Source: Amphiscolops sp. MND2022
Taxonomy: Eukaryota
Length of the DNA: 64,000 nucleotides
Direction of reading: 5' to 3'
Assembly (NCBI GenBank): GCA_964187785.1
Contig: OZ076409.1
Span: forward strand, 26,972,001 to 27,036,000
Below the pieces are notes generated by a model that saw nothing but the letters and a program-made list of their open reading frames with translations, ran no database searches and had not been told where the DNA came from. The first letter of the stretch is position 1. Every line of letters begins with the position of its first letter. Of the stretch, positions 1-61,679 are shown one piece after another. The translations under genes and the position numbers were made by a program.

Positions 1-3000
1 CATACCGAAAAACGAAAAGGAACTAAAATCCTTTTTGGGAGCAATACAATATCTGTCAAAGTATATCAAAAATCTATCAGCACAGACAGATATACTCAGA
101 AAACTACTAAAAAACAAAACGAATGGATCTGACAGACGAACACACAGAAGCGTTCAACAATTTAAAGAAATTAATCACCCAATTGCCATGCCTAGCGCAT
201 TACAACTCGAATAAAGAAAATATCCTAACAACCAATGCAAGTACAAAGGGACTAGGGGCTACACTCTGGCAAAAACAAAAAGATGGAAATTTGAAACCGG
301 TTGGCTTCGCAAGCAGATTTTTATCGGACACCGAGAAAAAATATGCGATAAACGAACTAGAGCTACTAGCAGTAGTGTGGGGACTGGAGCATTTTCGCTT
401 ATGTGTTTATGGAAAGCCAATTGAATTACTAACCGATCATTAGTTGATCAACCGCTGGAACCATTAGTTAAACGAAACAGATCAAATAAAACTTATAGCG
501 CAAAATTAACAAAATGGTTGGATCGATTAACACACTTTGATATAAACATAAAGCATACTGCCGGCAAGCATTTAAAATTGACGGATTATTTTAGCAGAAA
601 TCCGATTTCAAAGCCGGAGCCAATGGAGAAGTACGATGAAGAATACGTAATCAATTGCGTAATACCCTTACTGGAGGTTATTAACACACACGGTAGCATC
701 ACCGATGAAAAGAAATTGGAAGCACAAACGGACGAAATAGCAGCGTCAGCGAACAGCCAATCACAATCAAGAAGCGTGCACAAAATACAGCTCAGCGAAA
801 ACGAACAAGACAAACAGTGGTCATTGAAATTCTCACGAAGCAAAGTACGTTAAAATACAGCTGACACAAACAAAACCGTACAAAACAGAATGGACATTAA
901 AACAATCGAATGGATCGAAAAAGACGATCCATCGGAAGAAACACTGAGATTAACAAGATGGAAGGAGATAACAAAGCCAGGCGATTACAGTTTCACACAA
1001 GGACAATGGAAAAAATACAATCCATCCAGAGCACTGCGGGCAGAAACAAATCGAAGTCGAGTTGTGGCAGAAAAGAAACAAATTGCTATGGAAACGCATG
1101 GAGAACAACATCAAAGAAACAGAAGAAGAGCTAGAGAGAAAAAGAGAATTCCATAGAGTCATCGAAAAAATCAGAGCGAAGCCAAAAAGGGACGAAACCG
1201 GGACAAGCAGTAGCACACAACAACCACAAGGACAAGATGAAATAGAAACAACGTCATCGGACTCTGACCAAACAATCGCTGTACCGGCGATCAATTTCAA
1301 GAGATACCTGGGGGCAACCAGTGTACCATATATCCAAATGGGAACGGCGAGTAGAGTGCAATATAACGAAGAATGGGACCTAGAAGAAACCAATCGTCAG
1401 GCCGAACAAAATTTCTCAACCGATTTAAGGACAATTGCAGACGAAACAACAAATGACGAAAAAATTAATCAAAACACTGGTATGCCTGGAGAGGAGAAGT
1501 TACGAACAGATATCAGATGATTACAAGGACCATCACAAAAACATGTCGACACGATTTGGAGTAGTGTTCTATAATGACAAAATAGTAATTCCGAAGCCAC
1601 TACGGAAAACAGTCATCTTACTATCACATAAAGGCCACCCCGCTATCAATAAGATGACACACGCAGCCCAACCTTTCTGGTGGCCAAAACTCAACAAGGA
1701 TATTCAGACGAAATGCAACGAGTGTATTCCCTGCAAATTGTCAGGTAAGAGTATAAAACCACAAATACCAATGACGGAAATAAATTACTTACCTCCGGTA
1801 GAAAAACCAAACGAGGAAATCCAAATGGATTTCATCGGACCAATAAGATTCGAGCATCGGCGATTTTTTATACTGATATCTATTGACCGGTATAGCAGAT
1901 GGCCGGCAGCCTGTATATGTGAAGCTCCTACAGGCAAAACAGCAAAAAGTTTCCTACAACAATACATACTACTGAACGGTATCCCACAAGTAATTAGATA
2001 GGATAAGGAACCGCCTTTACCGGAAAAGAGTTTAGACAAATGTGTAAAATTTTACACATTAAACTAATATATGGCACACCTTATATACACACAGATACGG
2101 GATTAGTAGAAAGGGGAATAAAAACACTAAATAATTAATGAGTACTAATTTAGAAGACAAATGCAACTTAAACAACGCTTTATACCAGTCCCTGAAGGTA
2201 ATGCGAATGACCATTCATTCAAAAACCAAAGAGACACCGTTCGAAAGAAACTACGGCCGAAAGCCGCGAACGGAATTAACCAGTTACTTACACTTACCAA
2301 CGGACAAAAATGATTATGTTTCAGCACAACCGGAGACCCTACAAGTCTACTCGTTTAACAACGGACATGGAGGATACGACCAGCTCATCATAAAAACCCC
2401 TCGGAAGCTGAATTGCGATGTTAGTAATAACTTCCCATAGAAATTCCTAGAGAAAAAACAAAACAAAAACAAATTCGAAAGTGAATACGATACAAATCCG
2501 CAAACAGCAGTAGCCGAAACTAAACACACAATAACGACGGACACAAATAAAATAATACACAAAAAGCGGATAAGTGACCCATTACCAAACTCATTTCAGA
2601 ACCCCCTGTCAAGAAGAGGAGAAAACCGCAGAGGTACGGACGAAAGATTTGTCCAAACGTCCATACAGTCAGGCTCAGAAGATGAAGAAGAGGAAGAAGA
2701 GGAGACACAAACTGAGACCGATGAAAGGCGAGCAAGTACCCCAACGGGGAAACATCAGTAGAGGGGATGGACACCAGCTTTGACTTCACACCGCCGATAC
2801 AAATCGGACGAGGGAGAAAAAAGGTGACTGAAGAAAAAACCCCGGGGAAAACAATCTAAAACTCCACGTGGACAGAAAGAGCGAAGAACAGCTAGAACAA
2901 GCAATGGAGGCAATAGCCGAGGACCCGACAATAATCACCATCTTCGACAACAACGGTAACGAAAATCAAAACCAAAACAATCAAAACCAAATAAAAACCG

Positions 3001-11003: not shown

Positions 11004-12945
11004 TTTTTAGCCGGCGCATTTTCGTTCATGAAAAAAGTCCGCCTCTTACAGTGACAAGTTTTTTGTTTCATCAGATAACAAAATGTACACGTAGTGGACA
11101 ATTTTCACAGAACCAATGAAACTACGAAACTACTAGACCGGCCACGTCTGGCCAGCTAGATCGCATCTAAGTTAGTGCAATGGGTCACTCACTCATATTT
11201 CTTTTCAACGTTTCATACAAAACCGAAGGAGACTAAAGAGTTCCCTCTGGTTTTTTCTTCGGTGATAAGGCATTTTTTTTCAAAAATAGTTAAATGTCTC
11301 CAAAGAGTACCATCTTCATGTTTGTGATTTTGTGAAACCAAATGGCTGTCAAACAATCCCGAAGGACACCTCTTCTAGACGCACATCAGTTCGTATTTCC
11401 CACAAAAAGCCAAACTGTGAACAAAGAAGTATCAAAAAACTACTTCTTTTCCTTTTAAACAGTCGTTTTCCCCCTTAAATGAAGTTTTAACAAAAACAAT
11501 ATTTACCTTTGCCAACTGAAAATTTAATGCCGTGGAAAAGAAACTTTTGTTGAGAACCGCGGGCACCGCCGAGCTTCGGAGCTCCGAAAAAATTCCAAAC
11601 GTCCAGAAGCAAAGGGCTAGCAATTTCACAATGAAATCTGTTGCAGAAAAATCGTGCTCCTAGAATGATGTAGGAATTTTTGATTTGTTCAATTTCAAGG
11701 TGAATTTTTGAGTATCTGATGTTTAGCTCGAGAGCTGGCTCTCTTTCAACAGTTGGTGGATGATGCAAGCTCTGTGGATGGCAAGAAGCAAGACCTCAAT
11801 GTCACCCAATCGGCGAAAGCTGACAGTGCCACTGTACCCTTGCAACATCAGTTTGAACACCCAGTGGATTGCAATGATGATGTGGAGATGTTTTCAATGC
11901 CAGCTTCTCCGCTTGGCAAGGGCGTCATGCCCGGGGAGTGATGACACAGCACCCTCTGGTACAGCCGATTTCGCAATTTTGACATGTTCACAAATGATGT
12001 CAAAAATTTCAATTCGATGTGTTACGTGGTACTGAGTATGTGATTGCTCTTCTCGCTGTTTTCGCCGTTTTCAATGCAAAACAAGGACGAGAGCCGTCCG
12101 AGCGGGAAAACAGAGAACGACATGATCTGAGAGCCCATAAAGACTGTGAAAACTCATAGGAAGACTCTTTGATGCTAACACCCGGGTTTTATTGATTTTC
12201 AGCATTTTGCGGAAACCGTTAAAATGAGTCTTTTCGCTCAAAGGTCTTTGTTTGGTATTTGTTGTCCCTGCGCCCCAGCTTGTAGCTGTGTGGTTTGCCA
12301 TATTCATCCGTGCTTTGATGTATTTTCACTGGTTTTAGCTAGACCGAGAGCCCGAGAGTCCGAGAGGGACGTATTTCACACCCGGAGGCAAAATGGATCT
12401 GTGGCGTTGGGTTCCTCACCTGTGTTAACGCGTTAAGAAAACGAAGCATGCCATTACATGTAATTATCAGGGGTGTCCACTCAAATTGGAATTTTGATTG
12501 TCGAAAAGTAACCTTTACCACCAGTGAAAAATCTCCATGTGACAAACCCTAGATATCATTCACAATAATCCTCATTTCCAGCGCCAAGTCAGTCCCCTTT
12601 TAAGAAAACGATAAAAGAAACTGCAGATGAGAATATCTAACTTGCTATGCCAGTGATGTACTTGTATCTGCCAACTTGCCTTCTTACTGAGTCTTACAGA
12701 GGTCGACATCTTGATTCTTTAGACAGTTTTTCAAGCTGTCTAGAGTGGCTGTCTAAAGAAAAATTGGTCTAGAGGCTTTTGTGGAATTGATTTGTTATTC
12801 GCCAAATTGACCAATTCTACTTTTGGGCTGTCGATTTAAGTTTTTGTGACCAATTAGAAGAAACTTTAGTTTTTTATACCCCTCTGGTGGTTTTTGCTAT
12901 TGGTAGTTTTGAGCGCTATTAGTTTCTATGCATATGGGAAAGGAG

Positions 12946-13190
12946 AACAAGCCGGGATCGGCATAAGTCGGCGCCATATCTAAGGCTCAAAAATAGCAAA
13001 AGGATAGCAAAGTGTCAAGTATTATTTACAGTACCAGAAAAACCCAAAAATTGGACCGAATTGTCGTGCTAAAAGGGGGACACTTTTGTGTTTTTCAATA
13101 TCCATTCTGTCGCAAAACATCAAAAAATTGAGGGGGACCCTTTGGAGAAAAAAATGTCACAATGCCGAAAAAACTGAAATGGGGGACCGA
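12946..13190 (+). mobile_element. Truncated copy of HINE/DINE-1-like repeat family 1
   Basis: Starts AACAAGCCGGGATCGGCATAAGTCGGCGCCATATCTAAGGCTC, same head as 37034, 57365 and 58022. Confidence 0.7.
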
Positions 13191-14058
13191 TGTTCCCCCG
13201 GTATTCTGTGGGCTTTTCTGAAGCGCTATCTGCTGATTTAAGTCAGAAAATAGGGTCCAACGTATTTTTGAAAGATTTAGTGACCATTTATTTACAAACT
13301 AGATTTAGTTTATTACAAACCTTTCAATTGCCAAAAAGCTTCAAAAAACTCTAGATGATACTATTTTAGTAAAACTAGGTTCGCAGTACTCTCTTGAAAA
13401 AGAACTATGCAGTTTTGGTTCAAAAACACCTCAGAATGACCCAAAAAATTAAAAAAAAACGTTTTTTAAAGTCTATATTATTTGTTTGAATAATTTGTCT
13501 GAATGGTTGAAAGTTCAAAATTCGTGAAACAACGTGACAATATTCGCTAAACTTTAGGTTGTTTAAGTGCAAATATTCGACCAATTCTAACGACTTCAGT
13601 AATGTACCAATCGTGACAACAGAATCTACGAGAGCTACGAAATTTGGGTTATGCCAAAGTTCTGTTGTTTGTACGGATACTGAACGAACAAATATTTTTC
13701 AGTCAAAATTACTTTTTCTCATGTACAAAGGAGTCGTTTCATAAAATTAGAATCAAGTATACCAAAGCGAGTTAGAGAGTTCAACGATAAAGCCATTAAG
13801 GTTTCGATTTTTCAGCTATTTGCCTAGGAAACATTTATTCCACAATATCATCAAAAAGCCTTGTCTCAGCGCAAATACACACTCCAATTACAGATTATTC
13901 GAGAGCCAATTGATCAACTAAAATGATGGGTTCACAATGGTTTTATCAAAACTATGTTTTCTCAGTTGTTTTCCCGGTAAAGAGTTGAACTTGATGGAAA
14001 AGAGTTTAATTTATAACACGTGGAACACTTTTTTCAATCAGAAGAATTGGGCACAGTA

Positions 14059-15718
14059 ATGGCCACCGCAAAAATTAGAGTACCTCCCAACACTCTGGAG
14101 TGTCCCATTTGTCTGGAAACGGTGGTAGACCCTAGAATCTTACCATGTGGTCACAGTTTGTGCGGTCCAAGATCTTTGAACAATTGTCTATTCAAGTTAG
14201 AAGAAAACTTTGGTCCCATTAAATGTCCTTCTTGCCAGATAACCCATTCCGTTCAAGCAGCAGATGTGCCAACTAACTTCTCACTGCGAGATATGCTGGA
14301 ATCTGTGGAGCCGATGAAAGAAACGAAAGTTTGCAAAGTACACGGGAAAGAAATTGTTGCGGTTTGCAAAACGGATGGTGATAAAATTTGCATGTGTTAA
14401 AAATCATGCTGGGCATGATATTTGGGATATAGAAGAGGAAGAGTTTGAGACACTTTCATTCTTCTGGAAAACTCAAAGCGGTAAACTCGATGATATGATC
14501 ACAAAGTACGGGCACTGCAAAGACGCTATTAAAGATTCCATCAACTACTTGGAGCAAACCTACTTGAAAATTGACTCAATACAAGCTAAACTGACCCAAG
14601 TTGCGTCCAAAAAAGACAACATATCGCGCAAGTTAGTCGAAGGCAAGTTCAATCCAAAAGATGAAGATATTGTACTTCTTAAAGAGTTTTTAGAACTCAA
14701 AGAATCACTTCAGATCAGTGTCGACAAAGTTTCACACTTCGGCAAGTCGGTAGCAACATGTCTGGAAGATTTATATTTGGTGGGATCTACTGAATTGATA
14801 GATAAAGCTAATTCGCCCATCCAGAAATATGGCAAACAAACTACTGTGTTAGCTCTCGGAATTTTTGGTGGCGAGACGATAGTTGGAAACCAAGATGAGT
14901 TGACCAGAAAATGGAACAATGAAAAGCCATTCTCGGATTTTGGCTCCGGTTTCCAAGCAGTGTGCTATGAGAAGAAGTTGTACGTGATTGGCGGAAGGAA
15001 GAAACGTTGTTGGCAACCAGTTAAGTCTGTTCATGTTTTCTCTATACCAAATAATAAATTGACCCAAGGTCCATCTTTGAATATGGATCGATCAGATATG
15101 ACTTCTTGTTTCCATGATAGCTCTAGGTCTATATTTGTGATTGGCGGCAACTGTTTTAATCGTAACTATCTTGAAACAATCGAGAGGTTAGTTTTGAATG
15201 ACGAAGGGGATGTTGTGGGTGAATGGGAGATGATTACACCGATGCCTGTGGAAGCAACAGGTAGCGCAGCTGCTGTGCTGGGAGATTGTCTCTATGTGTG
15301 CGGAGGTACAAATAAAAGTGGCCGAATGGATTTAGTTCAAATTTTCAACGTCCCCACCGGAACATGGAAGCTAGGTTCCCCCATGAAAAATCGCAGATAC
15401 GGTCATTCAGCTACTACAGTTGGCAACAAAGTATATGTCATGGGGGGCTCACTAACAAAGTTCATGTCATCTCTTTCTGGTTCGTGCGAAGTATATGATC
15501 CAGCATTGAATGTTTGGTCATCGATATCTTCAATGCCAATCCCTAAATATTGTTTTGGAGCAGCCGTTTTAAACGACCAAATTTACATTGTGGGTGGTTA
15601 TGGCGACAGCACCAAAGCACATCGATTCGTTCATGTATACGACACACAAACAAACAAATGGTCCACCGGAGCACAAAGAAAGTCTGTCGACGGATTCACA
15701 GTTTGCGTCAGTTGGTAA
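14059..15718 (+). CDS. Intronless TRIM-like protein (RING, B-box 2, coiled coil) fused to six Kelch repeats; one frameshift at ~14385-14400 (pseudogene, null allele or sequence error)
   Basis: RING: CPICLETVVDPRILPCGHSLC...C...CPSC followed by PTNFSLRDM. B-box: CKVH...CKTD...IC / ACVKNHAGH, split across two frames. Heptad-rich linker. Six GG-containing blades (GIFGG, YVIGG, FVIGG, YVCGG, YVMGG, YIVGG) with YDP/YDT..W motifs. Acceptor-like T-tract + CAG ends at 14041, upstream of the ATG. Confidence 0.9.
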
Positions 15719-16551
15719 AATCGTTTCATACCATTTATGTTGAGCGACATTTCATTCGACAAACGCCGGATTTCACTAACCCGAATGAACTGCAACAGAA
15801 CTGGAAAACAAACTGCAAATACATGAAAATGATGAACATTTTCAATCGAAAATAAACATCAACTTCAGAGCTACAGTCTCAATTCTCATGCCATTTTGCA
15901 TATATACGTGGCTGATTCAAACATAAGGATTTTCTGTGATTTTGGATACAATTTTAGTTAGAAATCTGCCTTTCTGTTAGAAAGAAAATACTTTGAAATT
16001 TCACTTGGCGATCCATCTTTTAAACTATTTTTCATACCGTTTCAAAGGCTATTTTTTGTTTTCTCAACCTTTTCTTTCAGTAGCTACAGTTGGGAAAACG
16101 TAACCTAGATATATTCCCAAAAAAAGTTTTTCGGAGTTTGCGAGTTTTTCGTAGATAGGGTTTTCGTCCAGTGCCTTTTACTCTTGACACCTATTGCTCA
16201 AAACTTCTCCCCTATCCGCAATTTCAAGCACCCAATGATTGTTGGTAGACTATTTTGATAAACCAAAACTGTGATCACAGACATTCCGTTTTTGAGGTCC
16301 ATTGTTAAATTAAAACAGTAGGTCTCGCTACTTTTGTTGAGTATTTAGCCAAATATGTCTACAAACTGAAATGCTCTTTCTATTACTTTCCGATAAAAAC
16401 AAACGAGAATCACTCAGTCGTCCATTATGATGAAAATAGATTCCGGCACTGAAGTACACTGAATACTGAATCCCTGCTCCGGTGTATTTATCCATAGACA
16501 GAAAAGTCAGAGAAATCAAAAAAATCAACGATATTAGTTGTACGAATCCAG

Positions 16552-16974
16552 CTATCCGAAAATGGCATGTGATGATGAGAAACACGTCTTGTTGCGCCTG
16601 TTAAGACTGTTTATCGGGGTAGTTTTAGGTGCAGCCGTATTAGTTTTCACAGGCGTTGACGTGCGAGCTACGGAAAGATTTTCAGTTTCAGAATCAAAAC
16701 ATTGTGTATTTTGGTGAGCAGAAGATTTTTTGGCAGATGGTACTACTAGCTCCATTATCTCCTTCTGGTTCTCAGCTAGTAACTTAGCTAGGTCAGACAT
16801 TATCTCTTTTCTTAAGGAAGTTTTTATCTCTTCTAAGTTTTCAGGTTGTATTTTGGGGGATTTACTGGGACCTGCTATTAGATTTTCAGGCTGATTGCTC
16901 TCTACTATAGAAGCTTCATACTCTCCAGAAACAAGTTCAGCTACTGCCTTTCTTTTCTGAGTTCTAGTTGTCAT
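16552..16974 (-). CDS. ORF starting inside solo LTR A (MTTRTQKRK..., basic N-terminus plus coiled coil; possibly a gag N-terminus), reading through the LTR end into flank
   Basis: Open 140-codon frame; the first ~125 codons lie inside the element boundary at 16599. Confidence 0.55.
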   Translation of the reverse strand: MTTRTQKRKAVAELVSGEYEASIVESNQPENLIAGPSKSPKIQPENLEEIKTSLRKEIMSDLAKLLAENQKEIMELVVPSAKKSSAHQNTQCFDSETENLSVARTSTPVKTNTAAPKTTPINSLNRRNKTCFSSSHAIFG

Positions 16975-18953
16975 TCTTTCAGTTGAAAATTAGAGTCTTC
17001 GGTAAAGAATGATTTCTTCGAAAAAAATTTACGTTTGAACAACGGAACAATTGAACTCTAAACAATTCTCAGGATTAACTAAGTTTACATGTTATTCCGA
17101 ACTATATATACGTTCCCAGCATCATTTGTTCCTCACCTAAAAAATCTTAGGTAACTTAAAAATCGGGTTTGTTCACAAAAAAGCGCTAATCATTCAATAT
17201 ATTTCAGTCTCGCATCATAAAATCAGGTATCAAAAATCCTTGCTATTCCGTAACATTTTGTTGAAATCATTTTGTTCTGGCAATTCCATCTCCTGTTTCA
17301 AGTCAAAAATGCGGTAAACTAAAATTCTAGCTGACAATTTCATCGCTGAAGGCACGCCGGCGTGATCAATTAGTCAATTCCCAACTTAGAAAATTAAAAA
17401 TCGGAGCAAAAGTATGACACTCAAAAATGGCGACGGGAATAGAACGGAGTTACGAATTCCGAAAATAAAGATATTCGAATACTAAAAAGATGCTGGAATA
17501 GCATTTTCCAATTTTTACCAAAAGCACAAAACATCATCATACGAGACAATACACAGATTATGATATGATAGCAAATTACTCTGTACAACTAAGTTAACGA
17601 TAACAAAACTCATTTTAAACAGAAAATATCAGTCATTCCATGGTAATACAAACTCAAATAAACACAGCGTTATTAGTATCGCATGATTAGAATTGACCAT
17701 ATAGTAAAAACTGAAAGCTCAGAAACGCACCCTCCATTATTAAAAAGATCATTGGCACGATGATTTAAGAAAAGGAGAGAGACACATTACATTCATCAAA
17801 TTTGGATAATAGCAATCTTACGATGCATTTTTGACGTAAGCGTTAAGTCATGATCCATACGTAAAATGTAATGTTTCATTATGATCATTCTGAAAACAGG
17901 TTATTTGCAACGAAAGGTGAGCATGAACTTTGCCGTTCTCAACACAGACACTCTTTGAAGTAGCACACAATCAAAAGTATTTCCATGTTCTTTCTTACAG
18001 TACAGCTCTAATACGCAAATTTTTATTCCTAAAATCCTTTAAATGCGTCAATTCAAGCAGAACTTCATTCGAATTAGTTTGAACTGTCGTTCTGTATTTG
18101 TTTTTTACAATTCTCTCCGTAGTCGCTCCGTACGTATCAAGGTTAGATAAAGCTGAGTGACGAATTTTAATTTTACAATTCGCTTCGTAGTAGCTCCGTA
18201 CGTATTATAATTAGATATAGCTGAATAGCAGTAACTGGCGGAGAGGGAGCGGAGAGCATAGGCGATTTCATTCTCTTTCCCTTAGCTAGTCGGCGTTGCT
18301 AGGGGCAACTAAGCACGATTCTATTGGTTTGAGCTCAAATAATTCACTTAAGGAACGACGCTATTGGTCAGTAGAAATAGAAACACCGGTTACTACCTTA
18401 GTTGAGTGACGCTGTCATAACGTTGTGAAAATTAGCTTAAAATACTTGACTGTACTTTATGTGAAATTTGACAACTACTTCAGTACTGGAAAACAAGTCC
18501 ACTAAACTATTTTGTATGTTCTTTTCAAATTAGATTGTATGAACTCCGTTGGGATCGCGGTGTTAAATATTATTTCCAATATTTCATTTTAGTGTGGAGA
18601 AGAAACAGATGATCCCATTTCCGAAAATATTCCTATTTTGATATTTAGATTAGTATGGAAATTTCAGAAGACGATGCCGGAAGTGGAAAATAAAGTTACG
18701 TGTGAAAACATTTCACCGGAAGTTTAAGTTAGTCTAAGATCATTTCTAAAAACATACGGTAACGTTTACGTTCGCTTTTGTGTTCGGAAAATTATCTACG
18801 AATATTTCGGCTGTACTGTAAGTAGAATTAGGTTAATTAAAAACTAATTAGAAACTAATTAATAGTACTTGTAATATTCATGGCCGCGTCCTTTGCCAAA
18901 TCCCACCACTCCAGAGCAGCATGTAAAATTGCAACCAGGAGCGGGTCGCTACA
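16599..18953 (-). mobile_element. Solo-LTR-like element A (2355 bp) with 5-bp TSD
   Basis: Termini TGT...ACA, flanked by perfect GCGCC duplications (16594-16598, 18954-18958). No internal pol. Minus-strand CCAAT boxes near 18322 and 18362, and a ~70-bp internal direct repeat at 18100-18220. Confidence 0.85.
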
Positions 18954-58843: not shown

Positions 58844-61679
58844 TTAATTATAAAACAGTTCTAATAGTTGTTTGTTGTCAACAATATACAGTGATGTGAT
58901 TTTCGATATATACTGTTTTAATCGACGAGGAGACATTTTCCAGGGTGAGGAAGGAACAAGATCCAAGTTTTTTAACCAATTGTATGCTTTTTGAAGGCAA
59001 TTGGTCAGAGATTTACTATTAGTAACAGTTCTGCTATATGTAGGAGTATACAGGTTCCTTTTATTCCACCTTGTTTGAAATTTAGGATCGGAGTTTTGGT
59101 TTATTTGAAGAAGGATGCGAGGTGATTCAGACTTCAATTGACGAAATAATTCTTTCAGTATTTCTACCATGAAAAGTTCAAACACAGTCAGAATTTTATT
59201 GTCTGCAAGTACATTTTTCAACGAATCAGATTTTCTTTTGAAATAAATTGCTCTCAATATTCTTCTTTGCACAGTTTCAATTTTTGATAGATTCGATTTG
59301 GCAGCAGTACCGTATAATAGTAGACCATATGTTATTACTGATTTAGCATATGAGTTGTAGAACATTAGGAGGCATTTTCTAGGATACAAATGTCTTACTC
59401 TATACATCAAGCCGCAGAATTTATTGAGTTTCTTCACCACATGATCAATGTGCTCTCTAAACTTTAAGGTTTTATCTATGTGAACACCTAAATACTTGCA
59501 TGAATTTTGGTTAAAAAGTTCTTTCGGCAGTATGTTCAAATTATCAGGCTTGCCGCAGCCAAAAAACATTGCCTCGCACTTATCAGTATTGATCGTCAAC
59601 TTGCTAGATTTAAACCATTTGGAAACAGCTACAATATCATTTTTGATTAGAGGATCAGTACGTTTTCCTGCATTAATAATGGTTGTATCATCGGCAAAAA
59701 TTATCATTTGACTATTTTGGCAGACATTTGGAAGGTCATTGATGTAAAGAAGAAACAAAAAAGGCCAAAGAACGGATCCCTGGGGAACTCCCGTGCAAAG
59801 TTTTAGTTTTTCTGTGCTCATGCTATTAGCTTTAATGTATTGCCATCTATCAGTTAAATAACTGCCAATTAGATGGTTGATATTTCCGCGCAAACCAAGT
59901 TTTTCCATTTTATTCAGCAAAATTTTATGATCAAGGGTATCAAACGCTTTCTGTAGATCAATGTAACAGGCTTGCCCGGTCAGTTTTTTATCTATCGCAT
60001 TTCTAATAAAATCAGTTATGGCAGCGATCGCATCAGTGCAAGACATTTTGTCTCTAAATCCATATTGTCTCGGGTTGAGCAACTTGCTAGTTCGACAGAA
60101 GTTCATCATTTGTTTATGAATGATTTTTTCGAAAATTTTGCTCAATGAGCTCAAAAGACTGATTGGTCTGTAATTTTGAGGGTCTTTTTTGTCACCTTTC
60201 TTATACAAAGGTATTACTTTAGCTATTTTGAAGCAATCTTCGAAAATGCAGTTTTCAATACATTGATTGAAAATCTTGACAAGGAAAGGTTCTATTATGG
60301 GAGAACAACATTTCAAAATTTCATTACTTATTCCATCATGACCACTGCTTTTTTTATTTTTCAAACCTCGAAGTATTTCAGAGATTTCTTTTTCATTTGT
60401 GGGATGTACAAACATTGTCTTCTCAAAATCGGGTGTATTACACTTTTCTGTCATGGTATCAAAGTTAGATGATAATTTTGGTCCAATTGATACGAAGTAA
60501 TTATTCAGAACATTCAAGTTGGGAAAATTCATTACATCTTGTTGTTTTTGTGTTGTTTTTAATGTTTTATAGATTGTTTTAGCAGTCGGATTTACTCCTA
60601 GTTTTTTGTAATTGGCTTTTTTCTTCTCCGATCTAATCATTCTCATGACTCTATTTCGACTTGTTTTGTAATTTATACGATTTAACTCGGTAGGGTGTTT
60701 TACCCAGAGCTGGAAGAATTGATTACGTTTATCAATAGCATTTTTAACTTTGTTTGTAATCCAATCCTCGGATTTAATACGACCTATCCAAGGTTTCTCC
60801 GGTGCAAAATGATCTACACTTGCCATAATAGTTTCTGATAGTCCTTCCATTTGTGCATTAACGTCCGATGTTACATTCATTTTTCTAAGTTTCTGATCCA
60901 GATAGAGTAGGAAATTTAGCGCAACATCTCCTTTTATTTTTTTTAAATTGCGAACTAATGGGATATTCATATTCGTACATTCTTTCCAATTGGCCGGTAT
61001 CTTTGCAGTGACCGTGAAGTGGTCACTAATAGTTGTTTGTATTGTTTCCGTAGTTACCAATCTTTCAGTGATCATATGATCAATGCATGTTTTAGATGTC
61101 GGTGTTACTCTCGTTGGTAGAGAATTACTTACTTGAAAATCATAAGCAATTAGTAAGTTGATGTAATCTGTTTTGGTTTTATGTTCTACCAGTGTGTCAA
61201 TGTTGAAGTCTCCAAAAATTATTGACTCGCCTTTTATTGTCTTCAAAAAATAGAGTAGAGCCTCAAATTCTGCGAAGAATTTAGTTAAACGGAGCGTTTC
61301 AGGTCTATATATTGCACAAAAATTTTTTACAACATTTCAGGGAAAGTTATTGTATTATAGAACATTCAATTTCAGTTTGAAATTCAATATTACTGTATTT
61401 AATACCTTCCTTTACGTAAAAAGCCACTCCTCCAGATCTGCGCTTGAAAAATTCTCAAGGTTTTGATTCAACTGGTTGGTATTCATCAAGATCCAATTCA
61501 TCTAAAGGATCGTTTTCAGTTAACCATGTTTCTGTTAAAATCAAAATTTCAGGTTTCCGCTTTAAAGTTTCGAGAAGTATTTTGAGTTGGTCATGATGGA
61601 ATCCCAAGGATCTAATATTTAAACCTAATACATTTACCTCATTCATCCGGCTTTCAAATTGGCTGATATCATTAGTCAT
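58844..61679 (-). pseudogene. LINE ORF2 (AP endonuclease + reverse transcriptase) with one TGA (61455-61457) and a frameshift near 61335-61350
   Basis: NIRSL, LTETWL, GGVAFYV, GDFNID, CIDH, SDH (APE); NYRPISLL, QYGFR, DLQKAFD, GVPQGSVL, FADD, KYLGV (RT). Confidence 0.93.

What the first reader, a model, noticed from the sequence alone, without database searches (positions are those of the whole stretch)
14059..15718. TRIM-Kelch fusion: RING/B-box/coiled-coil E3 module joined directly to a Kelch propeller
Seen: RING, B-box 2, coiled coil and six Kelch blades in one intronless unit, with no BTB/BACK or F-box. Known: animal TRIM proteins usually end in PRY/SPRY, NHL, PHD-Bromo, FN3/COS, filamin, MATH or ARF domains, whereas Kelch propellers normally recruit substrates through BTB-Cullin3 or F-box adaptors. 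Inference: a cullin-independent, single-chain E3 ligase using Kelch as its substrate receptor, possibly a lineage-specific class. Its intronless form amid TEs would fit a retroposed or expanding, perhaps defence-related, family.
Basis: partly seen in the sequence, partly recalled or inferred. Interest (0 to 1): 0.8.

Follow-up and report, generated by a model that had tools for sequence, protein, structure and literature searches.

The report
Broken retrocopy of TRIM-Kelch ligase family
This is a recently broken, intron-free copy from an expanded gene family that joins a TRIM ubiquitin-ligase head to a Kelch binding propeller, a pairing we did not find described; intact members likely tag targets for destruction without a cullin, using a fast-changing binding face.

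Summary
The architecture is real: RING, B-box 2, coiled coil and a six-blade KLHL/KEAP1-type Kelch propeller, with no NHL, BTB, BACK or F-box. The window copy is broken by a 5-bp deletion in the B-box. That is its only lesion in 554 codons, after long purifying selection (dN/dS 0.30-0.39), so it is a recently inactivated retrogene or null allele. The family behind it is the real finding. Five of five modelled loci are multi-exon RING-B-box-CC-Kelch genes sharing eight intron positions that the window copy lacks. At least 16 such loci exist, plus an intact intronless copy. A sister family puts BTB/BACK on the same B-box-CC-Kelch core, and both families' propellers form one clade apart from the genome's ordinary KLHLs. 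Top-face loops diverge faster than the core in 8 of 8 paralogue pairs. No paper searched names a TRIM-Kelch, but RING+Kelch clusters of unrecorded taxa exist. Ligase activity, expression and a defence role are untested.

The parts
14059..14400 (+). First frame, 113 aa: RING and first half of B-box 2, ending at a premature TAA caused by the deletion
14101..14238 (+). RING-HC finger: eight ligands present, five extra residues between ligands 5 and 6, Gln at the linchpin position
   Evidence: best PDB sequence matches of paralogue P0057 are TRIM72 and TRIM21
14332..14419 (+). B-box 2, split by the frameshift; all ligands present across the two frames
14391..14392 (+). Site of a 5-bp deletion relative to both C7 paralogues; the only lesion in 554 codons
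14375..15718 (+). Second frame from its internal ATG (447 aa): end of B-box, coiled coil, linker, Kelch; identical to ENA protein P0169
14429..14800 (+). Predicted coiled coil: a long helix and two shorter ones
   Evidence: helices over residues 19-142 of P0169
14843..15715 (+). Six-blade Kelch propeller of KLHL/KEAP1 type
15851..15856 (+). AATAAA, possible polyadenylation signal (inferred)
   Evidence: sequence

Best explanation
The window holds an intron-free copy, broken by one 5-bp deletion, of a multi-exon RING-B-box-coiled-coil-Kelch gene family; it likely arose by retroposition and broke recently, and intact members are predicted to be single-chain ubiquitin ligases that bind targets on the Kelch top face without a cullin. 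Shown: the domain order, the break, the intron-bearing relatives, the loss of all eight shared introns, purifying selection and the fast-changing top-face loops. Inferred from TRIM biology: antiparallel coiled-coil dimers place two propellers centrally; target binding clusters the dimers through the B-boxes, which dimerises the RINGs and switches on ubiquitin transfer. The Gln linchpin, as in TRIM72, would make activity depend on that clustering. Inferred, weaker: the paralogues form a repertoire against varied, possibly foreign, proteins. The window allele itself would give a 113-aa RING fragment and is probably non-functional.
For: Architecture. Intact single-frame example: 612 aa on C8 with RING, B-box and Kelch. 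Five of five loci modelled gave stop-free RING-B-box-CC-Kelch exon chains; eight intron positions and phases (window residues 26, 64, 146, 202, 346, 412, 480, 538) recur in them. 16 of 30 spliced-type RING exons have a same-strand Kelch exon within 300 kb downstream; controls 6, 1 and 4 of 30. Window versus C7 copies: dS 0.73-0.85, dN/dS 0.30 (0.23-0.39) and 0.39 (0.31-0.49); about 30-35 stops would be expected had the branch been neutral, none are seen. No BACK match lies in the five modelled genes. Top-face loops differ more than the core in 8 of 8 pairs (Fisher p<=0.005), raw pN/pS above 1 in 6 of 8. TRIM72 linchpin and clustering: PMC10643145, passages.
Against: No activity, substrate or expression data. 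The RING carries an unusual insertion, and the linchpin is Arg in only 2 of the 9 copies inspected. Some TRIM RINGs are inactive alone (PMC6487577, passages). The intact C8 copy has lost the last two B-box His ligands, and a near-identical ENA version is in pieces (P0164, P0162), so the retrocopies may be decaying. Loops vary in any Kelch family, the loop alignments hold gaps, 2 of 8 pairs give top-face pN/pS of 0.59-0.67, and I saw the variation before defining the loop set. The exon models come from my own aligner and are unreliable in the linker and, for C10:20.4, in the last two blades. 14 of 30 RING exons found no partner within 300 kb. No direct intron-bearing parent of the window/C7 clade was found.
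Confidence: 0.68

Rival explanations
1. The window locus is still functional: the deletion is an assembly error or a segregating null allele, or splicing or the internal ATG yields a B-box-less or RING-less protein that could act as a decoy.
For: One lesion only, strong past purifying selection. The second frame has its own ATG and stays open for 447 aa. 35 GT-AG pairs could restore frame on paper. A 97%-identical ENA protein (P0170, 348 aa) shows a second version whose 5' part I could not see.
Against: The same second frame is in another assembly record. All 35 frame-restoring splices remove part or all of the B-box, and none uses a conserved intron site. P0170 was also not called as a full-length protein.
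Confidence: 0.2
2. The family does not work as stand-alone ligases. The RINGs are weak, and the proteins act as adaptors, for example by pairing through the coiled coil with the BTB-B-box-CC-BACK-Kelch sister proteins that would recruit CUL3.
For: The sister family shares the B-box-CC and the Kelch clade (99/97). The RING is atypical. TRIM coiled coils can hetero-oligomerise (PMC6487577, passage).
Against: All eight RING ligands are kept in the seven copies whose whole RING was modelled, and RING+B-box has dN/dS 0.14-0.22.
Confidence: 0.15
3. The family is an ordinary protein-turnover or developmental ligase expansion; the loop variation is relaxed constraint, not an arms race.
For: Top-face pN/pS is near 1 in several pairs (1.03, 1.12) and below 1 in two. 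There is no infection or expression evidence.
Against: Ratios of 1.45-2.2 in four pairs, tandem clusters, repeated retroposition and frequent gene death fit birth-and-death recognition families.
Confidence: 0.35

Closest known systems
TRIM/RBCC E3 ligases with a propeller C-terminus (TRIM-NHL: TRIM2, TRIM3, TRIM32, TRIM71; class membership recalled)
   Same: RING, B-box 2, coiled coil, then a six-blade beta-propeller as predicted substrate reader.
   Different: The propeller is Kelch of KLHL type, not NHL. 'kelch' occurs 0 times in two TRIM family surveys.
TRIM72 and TRIM21 (RING-B-box 2-CC-PRYSPRY)
   Same: Best PDB sequence matches to the N-terminus of paralogue P0057 (E 1.6e-7 and 2.6e-7). 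TRIM72 has the same Gln linchpin.
   Different: No PRY/SPRY; insertion between RING ligands 5 and 6; shorter predicted coiled coil.
KLHL / KEAP1 BTB-BACK-Kelch adaptors of CUL3
   Same: Same propeller fold (TM about 0.8 over the target); top-face loops are the peptide-binding surface (established knowledge).
   Different: No BTB or BACK. The propeller belongs to a clade apart from 8 own-genome KLHL models and 4 outside KLHL-like proteins.
TRIMCyp (TRIM5-cyclophilin fusions)
   Same: A TRIM head that acquired an unrelated binding domain, with retrotransposition involved (PMC2279257, search listing and abstract start only).
   Different: Here the fusion is old, intron-bearing and expanded; retroposition copied whole fused genes.
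Unnamed ESM Atlas clusters carrying RING and Kelch
   Same: Feature scores 0.92-0.95; Kelch_1 in 98-100% and zf-C3HC4 in 75-99% of members (63, 134 and 75 members).
   Different: Taxa not recorded; B-box is not among the three families shown for them; no sequence search linked them to this family.

Membership tests
TRIM/RBCC | N-terminal RING finger | tested here: met
   PF00097 34.3 bits over cut-off 21; atypical spacing
TRIM/RBCC | B-box 2 directly after the RING | tested here: met
   PF00643 32.8 bits in C7a; in the window the ligands are split by the frameshift
TRIM/RBCC | Coiled coil directly after the B-box | tested here: met
   long helices, pLDDT mostly 70-90, in the model; prediction only
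TRIM/RBCC | All parts in one polypeptide | tested here: not met
   Not met for the window allele (frameshift). Met by the C8 copy and by five exon models
TRIM/RBCC | Antiparallel dimer and E3 ligase activity | not testable with these tools
TRIM-NHL | NHL repeats | tested here: not met
   no NHL family at E<=0.1; listed Foldseek hits are all Kelch propellers
KLHL/KBTBD | BTB and BACK domains | tested here: not met
KLHL/KBTBD | Six-blade Kelch propeller | tested here: met
Processed retrocopy | Precise lack of introns present in relatives | tested here: met
   eight shared intron sites are absent
Processed retrocopy | Poly(A) remnant and target-site duplication | tested here: not met
   none evident in 11500-18500; expected to have decayed at dS about 0.8

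The most novel reading that the evidence does not exclude
This lineage built one B-box-coiled-coil-Kelch chassis and fitted it with two alternative ubiquitination heads, its own RING or a CUL3-recruiting BTB, then expanded both into a germline repertoire of dozens of receptors with hypervariable top faces that recognise foreign proteins and may pair through their homologous coiled coils. It would be a natural switch between single-chain and cullin ligase logic, and a Kelch-based counterpart of vertebrate TRIM-B30.2 immune expansions.
Probability: 0.25. Interest if true: 0.82.

Novelty: new variant of a known kind. Interest (0 to 1): 0.6.

Why it matters
TRIM ligases are classed by a short list of C-terminal domains, and Kelch propellers normally reach ubiquitin machinery through a cullin adaptor. 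An old, intron-bearing, expanded TRIM-Kelch family adds a class and shows that a KLHL-type reader can be wired directly to a RING. The BTB-headed sister family makes the comparison testable: same reader clade, two ligase routes. The window copy itself is only a damaged pointer to this family.

Tried and rejected
No sequencing run was listed for the locus, so no reads were laid; this says nothing on expression. Single-sequence folding of the C8 protein failed (pLDDT 34). Searches for outside relatives: (9 hits of 6905 candidates, all Kelch-only matches, none with RING or B-box Pfam; 0 of 413; 2 of 7803: the family's own C8 piece and a RING-SH2 protein) found none with both halves. These searches need shared 5-residue words and missed even ordinary TRIMs, so they are weak. 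The phmmer run (22653 hits, best 150 listed) was swamped by multi-Kelch proteins; a RING-B-box profile found among those 150 only P0057, an allele-like copy of C7a. Alignment A2 was misaligned and not used. Searches used a wrong frame for the window's second half; one search corrected it. Rejected: NHL identity; a BACK exon in the multi-exon genes; one retroposition for all intronless copies (C8 groups with the C10 multi-exon genes, 97/98 in RING-B-box; no clade test run). An exact 16-base end of the C7 insert occurred only at the two C7 sites; a looser pattern found the family. Papers: searches listed nothing on a TRIM with Kelch; (six spellings) found 0 papers, on a recalled and untested guess that the animal is an acoel, listed nothing relevant and none of it was read. 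No call identifies the organism. No supplements were read; domain tables in supplements of TRIM surveys, or InterPro architectures, could hold the pairing.

Full report
1. Observation. The region runs from ATG 14059 to TAA 15718 in two overlapping frames. The first (113 aa) has a RING above the Pfam cut-off and half a B-box; the second has Kelch repeats at E 8e-42; no NHL, BTB, BACK or F-box appears. Alignment to two paralogues on C7 (75% nucleotide identity in the 5' half) shows that the window lacks 5 bases after 14391, inside the B-box. Read through with X at the break, the gene has 554 codons, no other stop and six Gly-Gly blade motifs. A model of the second frame shows a long helical segment and a confident propeller that matches KEAP1, KLHL3 and designed Kelch propellers. 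The N-terminus of a paralogue best matches TRIM72 and TRIM21 in the PDB.

2. State of this copy. Against C7a and C7b, dS is 0.85 and 0.73 and dN/dS 0.30 and 0.39, with bootstrap intervals below 0.5. An unnamed ENA record holds the identical second frame (P0169), and another holds a 97%-identical 348-aa piece (P0170). I read the locus as a once-functional gene that broke recently or segregates as a null. All 35 frame-restoring GT-AG pairs near the break cut the B-box.

3. The family. The genome (1.07 Gb; inferred to be an animal from its KLHL and TRIM genes, not identified) gave 125 RING-B-box matches (150 of 187 candidates scored) and 89 Kelch matches (135 of 193 scored). One locus on C8 is an intact, intronless 612-aa RING-B-box-CC-Kelch frame. 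I fetched five loci where RING and Kelch exons lie in order and aligned proteins to them with a spliced aligner of my own. All five gave stop-free chains. Eight intron positions recur with the same phase, at window residues 26, 64, 146, 202, 346, 412, 480 and 538; each is seen in three to five of the five models, the gaps being a missed first exon, one shifted boundary and the unresolved end of the C10:20.4 model. The window, C7 and C8 copies have none of them. Of 30 spliced-type RING exons, 16 have a same-strand Kelch exon within 300 kb downstream, against 6, 1 and 4 in three control orientations; they cluster on C9 and C10. Trees separate the nine TRIM-Kelch heads from twelve intronless TRIMs without Kelch (98/95) and place C8 with the C10 genes, which suggests at least two retropositions.

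4. A sister family. Fifteen of 17 loci fetched around long Kelch frames carry single frames of 861-906 codons. Four of four scanned have BTB, B-box, BACK and Kelch. Their B-box-CC is homologous to that of the TRIM-Kelch genes, and the start of BACK (3-box-like) is present twice, once after BTB and once after the coiled coil (13 of 13 at E<=0.02). In a 29-row Kelch tree, TRIM-Kelch and BTB-headed propellers form one clade (99/97) apart from 8 own-genome KLHL models and 4 outside proteins (six BTB rows and one outside row were left out). No BACK match lies within the five TRIM-Kelch models. The order of events is not resolved. The ESM Atlas returned ordinary KLHL-type clusters for this family, all under 0.9.

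5. Selection on the binding face. I defined the top face as the eight residues after each Gly-Gly and five residues of the preceding inter-blade loop. In 8 of 8 paralogue pairs these differ more than the core (Fisher p 3e-8 to 0.005). Raw pN/pS is 1.03-2.23 in six pairs and 0.59-0.67 in two, against 0.21-0.49 in the core for seven pairs and 1.07 for one. This is suggestive of diversifying selection but not a formal test.

6. Mechanism. From TRIM biology (PMC6487577 and PMC10643145, passages): coiled coils form antiparallel dimers, C-terminal domains recruit substrate, and RING dimerisation on clustering activates transfer. The window and C7 RINGs have Gln at the linchpin, which in TRIM72 makes activity depend on assembly. 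I therefore predict target-triggered, cullin-free ubiquitination. None of this was assayed. The RING insertion, the variable linchpin and the known inactive TRIM RINGs keep the adaptor rival alive.

7. Comparison and novelty. By domain order the intact members meet the TRIM definition; the window allele does not make the whole chain. They are not TRIM-NHL and not KLHL. 'kelch' occurs 0 times in the main text of PMC3503706 and PMC2533329, read as passages only. Six spellings of TRIM-Kelch gave 0 papers, and searches listed none on the pairing; the library lacks most subscription papers. Against uniqueness, the ESM Atlas holds three clusters with RING plus Kelch and further ones with B-box plus Kelch, taxa unrecorded. 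Sequence searches found no outside relative with both halves but are insensitive. Earlier scan notes on sponge kinase-Kelch families with a hypervariable face are an unchecked parallel.

8. Side result. Both C7 copies carry a 1.8-2.4 kb insert in blade 1. Its ends belong to a dispersed inverted-repeat element; 5 of 5 copies with both ends in view have 2-bp target duplications. A GT in the element's end and an AG just beyond its other end give an in-frame splice in both genes, and the downstream half keeps pN/pS 0.45, so the element is likely spliced out, as introners are (PMC9860276, passages).

9. Verdict. Real architecture, broken local copy, and a substantial family that I did not find described. 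New variant of a known kind; interest 0.6.

Noticed in passing
L064-L078 (C3, C4, C7, C8, C10, C1444): Intronless family of about 870 aa, BTB-B-box-coiled coil-BACK-Kelch, with a duplicated 3-box-like segment; at least 15 long open frames. Its propellers are in the TRIM-Kelch clade.
   Followed up: partly
L061 3656-6047 and the matching insert in L062 (C7): Inverted-repeat DNA transposon with a 2-bp target duplication inside both C7 TRIM-Kelch retrogenes, likely spliced out as a new intron.
   Followed up: partly
L005-L030 (clusters on C2 4.1-6.3 Mb, C6, C9, C12): A large second expansion of intronless RING-B-box-CC genes. Most end in a domain of about 130 aa with no Pfam match (3 of 3 such scanned); it looks MATH-like by eye (recalled, untested). 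Many copies are frameshifted.
   Followed up: partly
P0038 (unnamed ENA protein, 566 aa): Family member with coiled coil, linker and Kelch but no RING or B-box in the called frame; groups with the C8/C10 genes.
   Followed up: partly
L063 (C8:16420387-16420734): A partial second Kelch copy 6 kb from the intact C8 gene, with retrotransposon-like frames between them; an ENA version of the C8 gene is in pieces.
   Followed up: no
G000:C1:6.586-6.598 Mb: Tandem array of about ten RING-exon fragments of this family, several with stops.
   Followed up: no
window 58844-61336 (-) and 972-2001 (+): An 830-aa endonuclease/reverse-transcriptase frame (LINE-like) and an integrase fragment.
   Followed up: partly
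window 12932-13205, 16599-17480, 18024-18953: Dispersed repeats flanking the gene, shared with other fetched loci.
   Followed up: no
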